Below are positions 7,904-41,614 of a stretch of DNA of 46,215 bases, piece after piece (positions within the stretch are counted from its first letter, which is position 1; each line of letters begins with the position of its first letter). The notes below the pieces were generated by a model, which was not told where the DNA came from, searched no databases, and worked only from the letters and a program-made list of their open reading frames with translations. The position numbers were made by a program, and so were the translations under genes. The stretch spans positions 62,001 to 108,215 of the forward strand of contig KE560523.1 in NCBI GenBank assembly GCA_000442015.1. The letters run 5' to 3'. Source of the stretch: Rozella allomycis CSF55. Lineage: Eukaryota.

Positions 7904-8023
7904 AACATTGTGACGTCCTTTTTTCATATGTGTAATAAATAATTGTTCTTGATTTTTTTAATTACATTAAGCCCGCGCAGAATAGTAAACATTGGTAGTT
8001 AAGAGCTTAAGATATTTCCAAAA

Positions 8024-8444
8024 ATGTAATCATTTCAATTCGTTCACAAAAGGCCACCAACACCCGCAAAACAACAAGGAAATACAGAGAATGCCAAAAC
8101 TACGCAAGTCAAACAACAAGTCGATGAGGTGGTAGGAATAATGCAAAACAACATTCAACTTGTCATGGACAGAGGAGAGCAATTAGAATCCCTTCAAACA
8201 AAAACTGGTAATTAAATGGATGTTATCTTCAGAAGACAATCTACAACAAGGTGCGCTTCAATTTAAAAAGGGTGCCAATAACTTGAGGAAGCAAATGTGG
8301 TGGAAGAATATGAAGTTAAATTTAATAATTGCCACGATAGTTATTATAGTATTAGCATTAATAATATGTAACTGAATTAATTCTAGAAAATTAGTCTTTG
8401 CGATTCCCAAAGATAACACTAGTTCAGGAAATACTAATAAATAG
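8024..8444 (+). CDS. Synaptobrevin/VAMP R-SNARE, paralogue 2 (not in ORF track)
   Basis: AT|intron 8026-8052|G; QVDEVVGIMQNNIQLVMDRGEQLESL..FKKGANNLRKQMWWKNMK plus TM; 3 introns. Confidence 0.92.
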
Positions 8445-8535
8445 GAAATAAACATAGTTTTCATTTTTACGTCCAATTTCTCAAAGTTCCATTTATTGCG
8501 TTCGGTTTAAAGGGAAATATTTGGCCTACATTACT

Positions 8536-8769
8536 TTAATTATCGTTAATATTTTTCGAACCACGATGCTTCTAAATTTAAAGATTAGATTTATCTGTTA
8601 CTATACGATTAAATAAGAATTTTCGCCTAAAATGAAAATAGAGTGATAATTACCTTTCAGCTGCTTTTTTGTTCCTCAGTTGAGGCGTATCTAAAGAATT
8701 TAATGCTTTAAATCTATCCAAAAATAGGCCATCATTAGAAAACACATTTTTAACAGCTTCTTTCTTCAT
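8536..8769 (-). CDS. Small (~58 aa) protein with NxFxNDGxFL motif (TRIR/C19orf43-like)
   Basis: Two canonical introns give MKKEAVKNVFSNDGLFLDRFKAL..ERRKFLFNRIKHRGSK; family recalled from the motif only. Confidence 0.45.
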
Positions 8770-8865
8770 AAAAGGTTTAGCCACAATCGATGCTAAAAGC
8801 CTATCAAAAAGCTTGATATTCGACAAATATATAGTGGATGATAAAAAAGTCTAATTGTTTTTTCA

Positions 8866-9278
8866 ATGGTTAATTTGGAGGAAAAAAGAGTTGAATTCAT
8901 TCAAGATTTAATATCCGCCTGTTCGAAGGCTGCTGGTGCGTGTGCAGTAAGAATCATAAAATTTCATAGACATATGGTGTGTTCTCAAAGGGCTACAGAA
9001 CAGGGCATAGGATGCTGGGCACAGTGCAGGGCTTCAGCAGGTAATTGTGTCAACTGTGGACCATTTAGAATTGCTTAAATGCACAATGGAGTTAATAGCT
9101 GTTAAGGATCCCTTGCTAGATGAGTTAAGGCCTATAGTTTATAAGGCTTTGCAAAGATCGGCAGATTATTGTATTAAGGTACATGCAATCAATCATTTTA
9201 AAAAAGCACGACAATTGGCATTGTCAGCTATGCGCAAAAGAATCTCTTAATGCGATTAATTATTTGAAGCAGTTGTGA
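8866..9278 (+). CDS. Cys-rich four-helix-bundle protein, Csp3/YhjQ (DUF326) copper-storage-like, 108 aa
   Basis: After removing introns 8947-8976 (GT-TG), ~9041-9068 and 9179-9206: ..LISACSKAAGACAVC..GCWAQCRASAEL..DPLLDEL..YCIKHDNWHCQLCAKES. Confidence 0.65.
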
Positions 9279-9333
9279 TGAATAAATGATATTTTTTTCG
9301 ATTATGTAAGTTAAAATTCGAAATTTCCTTTGT

Positions 9334-9892
9334 ATGAGTTTTGTTCCACCGTTAAACTTTGCCCAAGTATTACCAGGTGTTTATAGATCTGGCTATCCCA
9401 ATAAGAGAAATCACGGGTTTTTAAAGAAGTTAAAACTAAAATCAATTTTGTATAATTTGCAAAGATAATTCATTCAGATATCTATGTCCAGATAGTTATA
9501 CCAAAGACAACGAAGTATTTGTTAATGAAGAGGGTATAAGATTTTTTCATTGCCAGTTAACTGGAAACAAGGTAAAGATGGTAAAAGATCCATTTGCGAG
9601 GAACCATTTGTTGAGATTGACAGAAATGATATAACAAAAGCGTTAAGCATAATTTTGGACACGGAAAACCTCCCCATCTTGGTTCATTGTAATAAGGGAA
9701 AGGTATCGTTTTCCATTTTGTGAAAAGTAGCACAGAGTTGGATGCGTCGTGGCAGCTCTTAGGAAAATTCATGGATGGTCTTTGACAAGTATATTTGATG
9801 AGTATGAACGATTTGCTGGTGCCAAAGTGAGAATTGCGGATCTTGAATTCATTGAACTTTTTGTGCCAAATCTAACGTCCTTAACGCATTAA
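9334..9892 (+). CDS. Siw14/Oca-family atypical dual-specificity phosphatase
   Basis: VPPLNFAQV..GVYRSGYP, HCNKGKHRVG catalytic loop, WSLTSIFDEYERFAG; 3 introns. Confidence 0.9.
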
Positions 9893-9990: not shown

Positions 9991-11432
9991 ATGGCAGACA
10001 ACACAGACGAACAAAACATTGAAATGTGGAAAATTCGGAAGCTAATAAAAAATCTGAATGACGCTAAAGGGTAAGTCAAAGTTTTTAGGCAATAGGATAG
10101 TGCAGGAACTTCTATGATATCTTTGATATTACCACCCAAGGATCAAGTTTCTAGAGCTCAAAAGATGTTGACTGATGAATATGGGACAGCATCTAATATT
10201 AAAAGTAGAGTGAATAGACAGTCAGTGTTATCTGCCATTACATCTGTGCAACAGAGATTGAAATTGTACAAAAATGGTAATATTATGTATATGAAATAAG
10301 CAAAGTACCAACCAATGGCCTTGTTCTTTATTGTGGAACTGTTTTAACTGAGGACGGAAAAGAAAAGAAAGTTTCTATAGATTTTGAACCGTTCAAGCCC
10401 ATTAATACATCCTTGTATCTTTGCGACAATAAGTTTCACACTGAGCCATTAAGCGAGTTGTTAGAATCTGATGCTAAATTTGGGTTTATCGTCATGGACG
10501 GTAACGGTGTGTTGTTTGGAGCTCTGACTGGAAACACAAGAGAAGTTATTCACCGTTTACAAATTGATTTACCAAAAAAGCACGGTAAGAACATTTAATG
10601 AAATATAAAAGGTCGTGGTGGTCAATCTGCACTTCGTTTTGCACGTTTGAGAACAGAAAAGAGAGCCAACTACGTTAGAAAGGTTGCGGAATTAGCAACG
10701 CAATTTTTCATTACCAATGATCGACCAAATGTTGCAGGGTTAGTTCTTGCTGGTTCTGCAGATTTTAAAACCGACTTGAAAAAATCTGATTTGTTTGATC
10801 AAAGATTGCAACCAAAAGTTGTCGCAATAGTCGATGTTCAATATGGAGGTGAGGATGGATTCAACCAAGCCATTAATCTCTCTCAGGAAGTTCTCAGCAA
10901 TGTGAAATTTATCAAAGAAAAGAAATTATTGGAACAATTTTTTGAATTGATTTCTCAAGGACAACCATTGATTTCTTATGGGCTGAGCGATACTTATAAA
11001 GTAAAACATGTTTTTCCTTTTAAAAAGGCATTGGAAATGGGCGCAGTGGAAACTTTAATTGTTTGGGAAAATCTTGATATAATGCGCGTCACTTTAAGAA
11101 ATAGTCAACTTGGAACTGAAAAGGTTGTTCATTTAACGAAAGAACAAGAATTGGTTCGCGAGAACTTTATGGAAAATGGTCAAGAGTTGGATGTTGTTGA
11201 CCGTGTTTTGTTTGTTGAATGGTTGACCCAGTCGGAAGAAGGCCAACCTGCAAATTACAAACAATTCGGTGCTACTCTTCAATTCGTATCAGACAAATCT
11301 CAGTACGGTTCTCAGTTCGTCAAGGGCTTCTCTGGAGTCGGCGCCATTTTACGCTACAGTGTTGATTTTATGAATTTACAAGATCAAGGAGACTTTTTAG
11401 AAGATGATGATGATTATGATGATTACTACTAA
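9991..11432 (+). CDS. SUP45: Eukaryotic peptide chain release factor eRF1
   Basis: GTS, TASNIKS, YLCDNKF and GRGGQS motifs intact; 4 introns. Confidence 0.98.
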
Positions 11433-29746: not shown

Positions 29747-30786
29747 TCATTTATTTTCAACATTATAGTCGTAAAATCCTCTGCCAGTCTTCTTCCCTAA
29801 CCATCCAGCCTCAACATATTGGACCAACAAAGGACAAGGTCTATATTTGGGATCACCTAACTGAGAGTGAAGGACCTTGCATATAGCAAGGCAAGTATCC
29901 AGTCCGACAAAGTCCGCCAAGGTAAGGGGGCCCATAGGAACATTAGTGCCCGATTTCATTGTGGTATCAATGTCTTCTTTTGTTGCGATTCCCTAAATTG
30001 AATCTCAAAGAATTTTACTTCGTACAACGCGAAAATAGCTTCATTAATATAGGGAATCAAAATCCTATTGGCAATGAATCCGGGAATATCTTTGGAGACT
30101 GTTGTCACTTTTCCCATTTTCTTGGCGATCTCTATAGTTTTATTGAGTGTTTCCTTGGAAGTACCCAAACCAGGTATAANAGAAGTACCCAAGCCAGGTA
30201 TAACTTCGACAAGTTTCATAACCGGGACATTCATTTAGTTAATTCTGTTATTACCTGGATTCATAAAGTGCATTCCAATAACTTTTTCAGGTCTTTTTGT
30301 GACGGAAGATATCTTTGTAATGCTTATTGATGAAGTGTTTGATGCTAAGATGCAGTTTTTATCTGTTATAGAATCTAGTGTCTTGAAAATGTTTTGCTTC
30401 AATTCAGTGTTTTCACTTACAGCCTATTACATGCGATTAAAATATATACTTCAATGATCATTTCGCAATCAGAAAGATCGCCAATGGTGTTCACAATTTT
30501 CCTTCTTGAGCGTATTTCATTCACCTCATCAACCCTTAGTTTACCCTTTTCAACATTCTTATTTAACAATTTGTCTATTCAAATTAAATAAAATAATTAC
30601 CCATAAATAAACATTGTTGATTGAGTTGCTGAGGATTTGCATCAAAAATTGACACTTGGAGCTTTGCATTTGCTAGAGCTACTTGGGCTATTCCTATGCC
30701 CATTTGACCAGCACCGACAATACCAAGTTTATGGATCTTTAACTATTCACATTAAAGTTAATTACAAAGCGCTTTTGGGTAAACAT
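29747..30786 (-). CDS. 3-hydroxybutyryl/3-hydroxyacyl-CoA dehydrogenase
   Basis: [44 protein letters not shown] (needs GT-TG intron 30228-30254), [31 protein letters not shown]. Confidence 0.95.
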
Positions 30787-40266: not shown

Positions 40267-41544
40267 TTATTTCAGTAATTGACCAATTAGGGCTGATCCA
40301 ACTATTAACGCAGAAATATAATTCATGTCATTTGTTTTATACTTTAGGAGAAAAAATAAAGAACCCAAGAAAATCAGTATTGTATTTAAGTCTTTTTGTA
40401 AGTTTAACGCTATGCATTTCACGGATTCTATACACATTAAGAAAATTATTGATATTGTTGCACCAACTTCAAAATTATTGCTCGGATTAGTATGTTTTAA
40501 TTTTGACAAAAATGCGAACGCTGGTAACAAAAGTAAACTCCAAGTTAAAATCCCCAGGGTTATTAAAATAGATCCTACATTGTTACCGGCAACAAACAAT
40601 GATATGAAAATTAATGGGGCCGGACTGCAATATATAAACTTCGTGCCAAACGTGTACTTCGACACCGCCATCCATTGATTGACAGAAACCACCTCGTTTT
40701 GATAAGCGTTCAAGATTGAGCTAAACCCACCGATGCAAATTAAGGCAGAAAGAAATCCAGATATATACAAATTCAAGTAAGCGTATTCTGATTGATAAAT
40801 GAATCCAGTTGGTGTCGGAGAGAGAATTGGTAATTCCACAACAAGTGACAAGAAGAAAAACCACATGTCAAAAATGAAAAACAAAAGTAGACAGAACTTT
40901 AACCAAAATGATTTGGTTTTTGAAAATAAATATTGATAAATTCCTCCTGAAATTATGATATAAGCAGGGTTGGTTTCAAATATAGCCTTCACCATTGACT
41001 GAATCGAAATGAACTTTGAAGTTCTTATGATTTCAATGTTATCGAAAAATATTTCCAATGACGACTTCAAGGCAAGTGCTGCAACAACTGCCATAATCGA
41101 GTCAAAGGCGTTCTGTACGAATTTACTATCCATCAGAAAGTTTTGATGGTTTAAAGAAATGTAGCTAAAAGTAGCCATTAATAATAAGCCAGGCAAAATG
41201 TATGCAAAGGCCGCGATAATGGCCCCCTTTTTACCCCTACGCAGGTATCCTAAATGTCCACATAAACCGATACTTTCACATCCAGGAAGCAATTGAAGAA
41301 AATTGAAGACCCTGTTAAACTGATTTTTGTCCATCCATTTTCTTTCTTTTACAAACTCGTTGTAAAGTAATCCAATTTGACCAACAGGACCTCCGTACGA
41401 ATTGAAACCTATTTTGAAAAACATAAGAAAGAGGCGAGAGATATCTATAAATTCAATTTGATTAAGATTTTCTTTGGTTAATTCATCATTTATCGGATCA
41501 TATGTGGAACCAGTTTCAAGGTCCTGGAAAAGGGACGAGCTCAT
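40267..41544 (-). CDS. Chromate ion transporter (CHR/ChrA family)
   Basis: FFKIGFNSYGGPVGQIG..EFVKERKWM..LLPG; duplicated degenerate second half; intronless ORF. Confidence 0.88.
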   Translation of the reverse strand: MSSSLFQDLETGSTYDPINDELTKENLNQIEFIDISRLFLMFFKIGFNSYGGPVGQIGLLYNEFVKERKWMDKNQFNRVFNFLQLLPGCESIGLCGHLGYLRRGKKGAIIAAFAYILPGLLLMATFSYISLNHQNFLMDSKFVQNAFDSIMAVVAALALKSSLEIFFDNIEIIRTSKFISIQSMVKAIFETNPAYIIISGGIYQYLFSKTKSFWLKFCLLLFFIFDMWFFFLSLVVELPILSPTPTGFIYQSEYAYLNLYISGFLSALICIGGFSSILNAYQNEVVSVNQWMAVSKYTFGTKFIYCSPAPLIFISLFVAGNNVGSILITLGILTWSLLLLPAFAFLSKLKHTNPSNNFEVGATISIIFLMCIESVKCIALNLQKDLNTILIFLGSLFFLLKYKTNDMNYISALIVGSALIGQLLK

Positions 41545-41614
41545 CTTGTTACCAGGAGACCAAACGCCAATCCATTAATTAAAAAGTCAAAGAATTGTAA
41601 GAAATAATTAATAT

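What the first reader, a model, noticed from the sequence alone, without database searches (positions are those of the whole stretch)
8866..9278. Eukaryotic, intron-containing homologue of bacterial Csp3 copper-storage proteins
The spliced product (108 aa, 9 Cys) aligns by eye, colinearly, with Bacillus YhjQ/Csp3 as I recall it: LISACSKAAGACAVC vs CIEACIDCMKACNHC, and YCIKHDNWHCQLCAK vs ECGKHDHDHCQACAK. Csps are described as prokaryotic four-helix bundles with a Cys-lined core. A eukaryotic copy with about half the cysteines suggests horizontal acquisition and altered metal capacity or function (inference). It is invisible in the ORF track, and the CxxC spacing ACAVC is restored only by removing the 30-nt GT-TG intron 8947-8976.
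Basis: partly seen in the sequence, partly recalled or inferred. Interest (0 to 1): 0.7.

Follow-up and report, generated by a model that had tools for sequence, protein, structure and literature searches.

The report
Hollowed-out copper-storage gene in Rozella
A small four-exon gene of the fungus-like parasite Rozella allomycis, hidden inside a wrongly fused public gene model, looks like a distant relative of bacterial copper-storage proteins that has kept the metal-binding residues at the bundle's open end but lost most of those in its deep core, so it probably binds only a few copper ions instead of about twenty.

Summary
The gene model is real: four exons (8866-9278), 108 aa, 9 Cys. The public model EPZ36581.1 wrongly fuses exons 1-3 to the neighbouring SIW14 phosphatase. 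The spliced product matches a profile of 77 Csp proteins in one colinear piece (27.6 bits, one 5-residue gap; best of 20,000 decoys 21.0). The match is remote: HHalign gave 52%, and Pfam, PDB and fold searches on the parts gave nothing. Seven of 19 conserved Cys and two mouth His are kept, mostly at the bundle mouth; 11 of the 12 lost Cys became Ala/Ser/Val/Leu. Best reading: a low-capacity cytosolic Cu(I) binder, not a store. The GT-TG intron is plausible: a second haplotype has frameshifting deletions inside it, and another enzyme gene in this window needs a GT-TG intron. No RNA was available to prove it. Eukaryotic Csp3s are already mentioned in a review, and the tree names no donor. The scan had noted GT-TG introns in this genome before, but no look-alike of this gene.

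The parts
8866..8946 (+). Exon 1 (27 codons): start and most of predicted helix 1, with Cys19 and Cys26
8947..8976 (+). Intron 1, 30 nt, GTAAGA donor, TG acceptor; nearer AG at 8968-8969 would give 23 nt and a frameshift; open in frame if retained
   Evidence: second haplotype lacks one base at 8955 and one at 8972; removal raises the profile score from 23.5 to 27.6 bits; not shown by RNA
8977..9040 (+). Exon 2: end of helix 1 (Cys29), shortened loop, start of helix 2 (Cys40, Cys44)
9041..9068 (+). Intron 2, 28 nt, GT-AG
   Evidence: same boundaries in public model P0053
9069..9178 (+). Exon 3: rest of helix 2 (Cys53), helix 3 (Cys83); most core Cys replaced by Leu/Val/Ser
9179..9206 (+). Intron 3, 28 nt, GT-AG
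   Evidence: only frame-restoring GT-AG listed; donor also used by P0053, which joins it to a far acceptor
9207..9278 (+). Exon 4: His motif (His86, His90), Cys91, Cys94, helix 4, stop
9334..9892 (+). Separate SIW14-type phosphatase gene (4 exons) to which the public model fuses the Csp-like exons
   Evidence: PF03162 positions 2-36, 38-68, 70-102, 103-151 in four successive pieces; 158 codons, no internal stop

Best explanation
An independent, intron-containing gene descended from a classical (His-motif) bacterial Csp3. It encodes a cytosolic four-helix bundle whose deep copper-storing core has been turned into an ordinary hydrophobic core, while the Cys/His ligands at the open mouth remain. 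It would bind a small Cu(I)-thiolate cluster (a few ions per monomer, against 19 in MtCsp3) and act as a low-capacity copper buffer or hand-over protein beside the cell's Ctr, HMA-domain, Cox17 and Cox11 proteins. Shown: the reading frames, the remote sequence match, the residue pattern in the alignment. Inferred: splicing at the TG, the fold, the metal, the stoichiometry, the role, and a bacterial origin.
For: One colinear match with a single 5-residue loop gap, 27.6 bits against 77 non-redundant Csps; the score rose with a broader profile (23.3, 23.7, 27.6 bits). 7 of 9 Cys lie on the 19 conserved Cys columns and an eighth on a column that is Cys in 12 of 77 Csps. 11 of 12 lost Cys became A/S/V/L against 31% elsewhere in the protein (P 2e-5). 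Kept are the equivalents of MtCsp3 Cys38, Cys54, Cys101, Cys111, His104 and His110, named as mouth residues in PMC10155185 and PMC5519932. By my own grouping 6 of 9 mouth-side Cys against 1 of 9 deep Cys are kept (Fisher one-sided p 0.025). The tree places it in the 60-row group that holds the classical Csp3s (95/92). All 4 one-base gaps of a second haplotype in 8789-9164 fall outside the exons (P 0.017). A 27-nt GT-TG intron is needed in a 3-hydroxyacyl-CoA dehydrogenase gene of this window. Copper transport and assembly genes are present in G000.
Against: HHalign gives only 52% (P 1.5e-4) locally and 7% globally. Without exon 4 the signal is weak: residues 1-83 score 10.9 bits and 7 of 5000 shuffles do better; P0053 against the Csp3 alignment gives 0.3%. 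The exon-4 motif was used to fetch the first Csp3s, so part of the match is selected. No Pfam DUF326 hit in the pieces, in P0053 or in G000, and no Csp in PDB sequence searches of the parts. The mouth/deep grouping was made after seeing the data and rests on my mapping to MtCsp3 numbers. The second haplotype differs by 39 substitutions in 376 nt here, about twice the rate in SIW14 (8 in 192, 9 in 179), which could mean weak constraint. No close relative was found to confirm conservation.
Confidence: 0.5

Rival explanations
1. A true Csp3 descendant that now uses the remaining mouth Cys/His for something other than copper: Zn or Cd binding, an Fe-S cluster, or thiol redox chemistry.
For: Only 7 of 19 canonical Cys remain, two of the four Cys of the first-filled Cu11-14 cluster of MtCsp3 (Cys97, Cys118) are Ser here, and the branch is very long (3.28 changes per column). 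The genome has the usual copper genes, so a Csp is not needed for basic handling.
Against: The kept set matches the Cu(I) mouth ligands, including both coordinating His; no other family matched.
Confidence: 0.2
2. A decaying or unproductive gene: the TG is a mutated AG, transcripts use the AG at 8969 (frameshift) or keep intron 1, and little full bundle is made from this allele.
For: In human genes TG acceptors were found only as alternatives to a nearby AG, and AG>TG mutants activated other AGs (PMC2374985, section 12). High divergence between haplotypes here. The public model reads through intron 1.
Against: About 25-30% identity to the nearest Csp3 with an intact frame, three introns and conservative core replacements points to long selection. 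Intron lengths in the window peak at 26-31 nt (58 of 90 automatic calls; 3 at 23 nt). eRF1 intron 1 skips two nearer AGs to reach 30 nt. Another gene in the window needs a TG acceptor. A retained intron would be frameshifted in the second haplotype.
Confidence: 0.15
3. Chance likeness: an unrelated small helical protein whose few Cys and His happen to follow the 3-4 spacing of Csp helices.
For: Weak HHalign probability, weak signal without exon 4, one plain shuffle reached 21.0 bits, generic helical-bundle hits only for the partial model, and freedom in choosing intron 1.
Against: No decoy of 20,000 reached 27.6 bits, also with Cys positions fixed. The three exon ORFs rank 1-3 of 1843 and lie in the right order with 28-nt GT-AG introns between them. 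Length equals that of BsCsp3 (108 aa).
Confidence: 0.13

Closest known systems
Classical Csp3 cytosolic copper storage proteins (BsCsp3/YhjQ PDB 5fig, MtCsp3 5arm, SlCsp3/Ccsp 6q6b; Pfam PF03860)
   Same: Length about 108 aa, no export signal seen, colinear four-helix pattern, His motif between helices 3 and 4, mouth Cys kept.
   Different: 9 Cys against 18-19 (11-23 in my 77-member set); deep core Cys replaced by Leu/Val/Ala/Ser; helix 1-2 loop 5 residues shorter; three spliceosomal introns; below Pfam detection.
Non-classical Csp3 (RkCsp3 PDB 6zif, NmCsp3 3lmf)
   Same: A Csp3 variant with a reduced ligand set at one end of the bundle (PMC10155185, passages and section 7).
   Different: The opposite end: RkCsp3 keeps the core clusters and lacks three mouth Cys and the His motif; this protein keeps exactly those three Cys and two of the three His and lacks the core.
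[quoted passage not shown] 2018)
   Same: Eukaryotic occurrence of the family.
   Different: The passage gives no species, sequence or function; the cited review could not be read, so whether those proteins are related to this one, carry introns or have lost Cys is not known to me.
Cupriavidus Csp3 subgroup (cluster of P0057)
   Same: Trp before the last His of the motif (0 of 77 other Csps), and in several members Ala for the Cys at reference positions 15 and 49.
   Different: 16-19 Cys; found by a search for that Trp; no higher overall score than other Csp3s (65-94 against a maximum of 102) and not grouped with the window's protein in the tree.
TG-AG tandem 3' splice sites (Szafranski et al. 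2007, PMC2374985)
   Same: TG acceptor 7 nt downstream of an AG, within the 28-nt limit reported.
   Different: There TG is only an alternative site; here only the TG gives the best product.

Membership tests
Csp3 copper storage proteins | Sequence homology over the four helices | tested here: met
   27.6 bits, single colinear match, above 20,000 decoys; remote: HHalign 52%, weak without exon 4
Csp3 copper storage proteins | Cys-lined core along the whole bundle (16-19 Cys in the characterised Csp3s) | tested here: not met
   9 Cys; 7 of 19 conserved columns kept; lowest count among 77 Csps held was 11
Classical Csp3 | His motif between helices 3 and 4 with the mouth Cys (MtCsp3 Cys38, Cys54, Cys111) | tested here: met
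   His86, His90, Cys29, Cys40, Cys91 align to them; the middle His is Asn; MtCsp3 numbering mapped by me from residue numbers in the papers and Cys spacing
Csp3 copper storage proteins | Pfam PF03860 (DUF326) hit | tested here: inconclusive
   No hit in five pieces, P0053 or G000; the full spliced product could not be scanned and the 21-position model relies on Cys
Csp3 copper storage proteins | Four-helix bundle fold | tested here: inconclusive
Csp3 (versus Csp1) | No Tat or other export signal | tested here: met
   By inspection only: seven residues precede the start of the bundle match region and they are charged, not hydrophobic; no predictor was run
Csp3 copper storage proteins | Homotetramer binding about 19-20 Cu(I) per monomer | not testable with these tools
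   Needs the recombinant protein; the ligand count makes that capacity impossible if the alignment holds
SIW14-type phosphatase (name of public model EPZ36581.1) | PF03162 domain within the same gene | tested here: not met
   The whole PF03162 domain is encoded by a separate gene from ATG 9334; P0053 holds only positions 69-150 of it and two out-of-frame stretches

The most novel reading that the evidence does not exclude
A bacterial copper-storage bundle was domesticated in the earliest-branching fungal lineage, gained three tiny introns (one spliced at TG), and was rebuilt from a 19-copper store into a mouth-only cluster protein that senses or hands over Cu(I): a natural 'half-Csp' that is the mirror image of RkCsp3 and a copper-handling part not described in eukaryotes in the papers I could search.
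Probability: 0.3. Interest if true: 0.75.

Novelty: new variant of a known kind. Interest (0 to 1): 0.5.

Why it matters
No eukaryotic Csp with a tested function turned up in my searches, and the one mention found is a clause in a review. An intron-bearing copy among housekeeping genes cannot be bacterial contamination. The ligand pattern would be a natural test of what the mouth cluster of a Csp does without the core, a question so far approached with mutants and with RkCsp3. It also shows that the public Rozella annotation hides whole genes in chimeras where 27-30-nt introns, some ending in TG, are missed.

Tried and rejected
Pfam on five pieces: no DUF326; a Hus1 hit (E 0.0007, 19.2 bits, under the cut-off of 27) was not pursued. 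PF03860 and the Csp3 P0002 against G000: no candidate. PDB sequence searches with three parts: no Csp. ESM Atlas with the exon 1-2 frame: no usable hit; with a Csp3 and PF03860 clusters left out: one archaeal cluster at 0.79, a lead only. Plasmid tblastn: one chance hit. No RNA holder listed; four laid runs showed no joints and behave as DNA. MAFFT alignments of exon pieces with Csp3s put pieces on the wrong helices or out of register and were not used. Fold search of the partial model: generic helical bundles. Cupriavidus as donor: not supported by the tree. Copper-fist search in G000 was empty, but so was its control. The JBC 2018 review was not held. No supplementary files were read; Table 2 of PMC10155185 (ligands per Cu site) is not held as text, which limits my site-by-site mapping.

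Full report
Setting. The window lies on contig C175 of an 11.86-Mb assembly, and the gene is single-copy there. Its neighbours are eukaryotic housekeeping genes: a synaptobrevin-like gene upstream (recognised by eye), a SIW14-type phosphatase and eRF1 downstream. A public protein identical to the first 58 codons is EPZ36581.1 of Rozella allomycis (P0053). Coding GC is 0.41 and GC3 0.38, against 0.36-0.47 and 0.31-0.32 in three neighbours. This is not a bacterial contaminant.

Gene model. Introns 2 and 3 are 28-nt GT-AG introns. P0053 uses the same start, the same intron 2 and the same donor at 9179, but reads through intron 1, skips exon 4 and runs through two out-of-frame stretches into SIW14. 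SIW14 is a complete gene of its own from ATG 9334: four pieces cover PF03162 positions 2-36, 38-68, 70-102 and 103-151. The public model is therefore a chimera, and the Csp-like gene is hidden under a phosphatase name.

Intron 1. The donor GTAAGA at 8947 is followed by an AG at 23 nt, which shifts the frame, and a TG at 30 nt. Four things favour the TG intron. First, a second haplotype, seen as a contig in runs X2 and X6 (two samples, two studies; X2 may be a source of this assembly), lacks one base at 8955 and one at 8972, so a retained intron would be frameshifted; all 4 of its one-base gaps in 8789-9164 avoid the exons (P 0.017). Second, an automatic count in the window peaks at 26-31 nt (58 of 90 calls, 3 at 23 nt), and eRF1 intron 1 passes two nearer AGs to end at 30 nt. 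Third, a 3-hydroxyacyl-CoA dehydrogenase gene in this window needs a 27-nt GT-TG intron (30254-30228, minus strand): the flanking pieces cover Pfam positions 91-140 and 142-172, and retention gives a stop. I looked for this after earlier notes of the scan reported such introns elsewhere in the genome; it is 1 checked of 32 listed candidates, many of which are plainly spurious. Against: homology does not fix the boundary (rank 65 of 1402 in-frame deletions by pairwise score, 634 by a narrower HMM; a 36-nt GC-TG option scores higher). In human genes TG served only as an alternative to a nearby AG (PMC2374985, abstract and section 12). The substitutions of the second haplotype in this stretch were not listed, so its acceptor is unknown. 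No RNA could be laid on the gene, so splicing is untested.

Homology. Two bacterial Csp3s were fetched with a motif from the window and confirmed by PF03860 and PDB matches. The set was widened to 201 sequences, 77 after thinning at 70% identity. The spliced product matches this profile in one piece over residues 12-99 with one 5-residue gap (27.6 bits). The best of 10,000 shuffles scored 21.0 and the best of 10,000 Cys-fixed shuffles 14.5; the three exon-bearing ORFs rank first to third of 1843 in the window. The match is nevertheless remote. HHalign gave 52%; residues 1-83 alone scored 10.9 bits, beaten by 7 of 5000 shuffles; P0053, which lacks exon 4, gave 0.3%; Pfam, PDB and Atlas searches on parts were blank. 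The exon-4 motif also seeded the first fetch, although BsCsp3 carries the same motif. I put homology at about 0.85.

What was kept. Of 19 conserved Cys columns, 7 are Cys here; an eighth Cys falls on the column of MtCsp3 Asn58, which is Cys in 12 of 77 Csps. Of the 12 lost, 11 are Ala, Ser, Val or Leu (31% elsewhere; P 2e-5), as expected for buried positions of a bundle that still folds. Mapped to MtCsp3 numbers (from residue numbers in PMC10155185 section 7 and passages, and PMC5519932 part 1 of 3; the remaining numbers inferred from Cys spacing), the kept residues are Cys28, 35, 38, 54, 101, 111, 114 and His104, 110. Those papers place Cys38, 54, 101, 111 and the two His at the five-copper mouth cluster, Cys97, 101, 114, 118 and Asn58 at the adjacent cluster, and Cys24 at the closed end. 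By my grouping, made after seeing the alignment, 6 of 9 mouth-side and 1 of 9 deep Cys survive (p 0.025). RkCsp3 shows the reverse: core kept, mouth reduced.

Mechanism. The best reading is a cytosolic bundle with a closed hydrophobic half and a small Cu(I)-thiolate/His cluster at the mouth: a buffer or donor of a few ions, not a store. G000 encodes Ctr, HMA-domain, Cu/Zn-SOD-family, Cox17 and Cox11 proteins, so there are copper clients; BsCsp3 is reported to supply copper to a target enzyme (PMC9484137, passages). Metal, stoichiometry and role are inference. Rivals are another metal or redox role (0.2), a decaying or unproductive gene (0.15) and chance likeness (0.13).

Origin. Trees put the protein on a very long branch inside the group that holds classical Csp3s (95/92) with no resolved neighbour. 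A Cupriavidus subgroup shares a rare Trp and, in part, two Cys losses, but it was found by searching for that Trp and does not group with it. No other eukaryotic member was reached; these searches find close relatives only. Transfer from bacteria is likely from the family's range but not shown, and its age is open.

Known or new. Eukaryotic Csp3s are mentioned in one review clause (PMC7558416, passages); its source could not be read. My searches (listings only) showed no paper on a eukaryotic Csp or on this gene; most subscription papers are outside the library. The scan holds no look-alike of this DNA. Verdict: a new, uncharacterised variant of a known family that fails the family's Cys-core criterion; interest 0.5.

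Noticed in passing
window 30228-30254 (-): 27-nt GT-TG intron just after the catalytic-His motif of a 3-hydroxyacyl-CoA dehydrogenase gene; retention gives a stop and no GT-AG option restores the frame.
   Followed up: yes
window 8866-9892; P0053: Public model EPZ36581.1 is a chimera of the Csp-like exons 1-3 and SIW14; the real SIW14 gene starts at ATG 9334 with introns of 28, 29 and 28 nt.
   Followed up: yes
window 10071-10100: eRF1 intron 1 (30 nt) passes two nearer AGs at 18 and 25 nt, which fits acceptor choice by distance.
   Followed up: yes
window 9472-9481: The second haplotype in runs X2 and X6 lacks 10 bases across the acceptor of SIW14 intron 1, although 10 of its 13 listed exonic changes in SIW14 are synonymous (read by hand); possibly a recent null allele or a shifted acceptor.
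   Followed up: partly
window 8789-9164: The two haplotypes differ by about 10% here against about 2% in 8010-8818 (17 in 800) and 4-5% in SIW14; depth ratio about 2:1 in X2.
   Followed up: no
window 40267-41574 (-): A 435-codon uninterrupted frame that looks like a chromate transporter (family recalled, not tested), unusual in an intron-rich window.
   Followed up: no
window about 18250 and 30190: Short peptide duplications on both sides of an N, probably gap-closing artefacts of the assembly.
   Followed up: no
window 20232 (+) and 36758 (+): Further candidate tiny introns ending in TG (28 nt) and GG (27 nt) in coding genes; not checked by homology.
   Followed up: no
L236, L243, L247, L256, L264: A Cupriavidus Csp3 subgroup with a Trp in the His motif, in which two otherwise near-invariant core Cys are often Ala.
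   Followed up: partly
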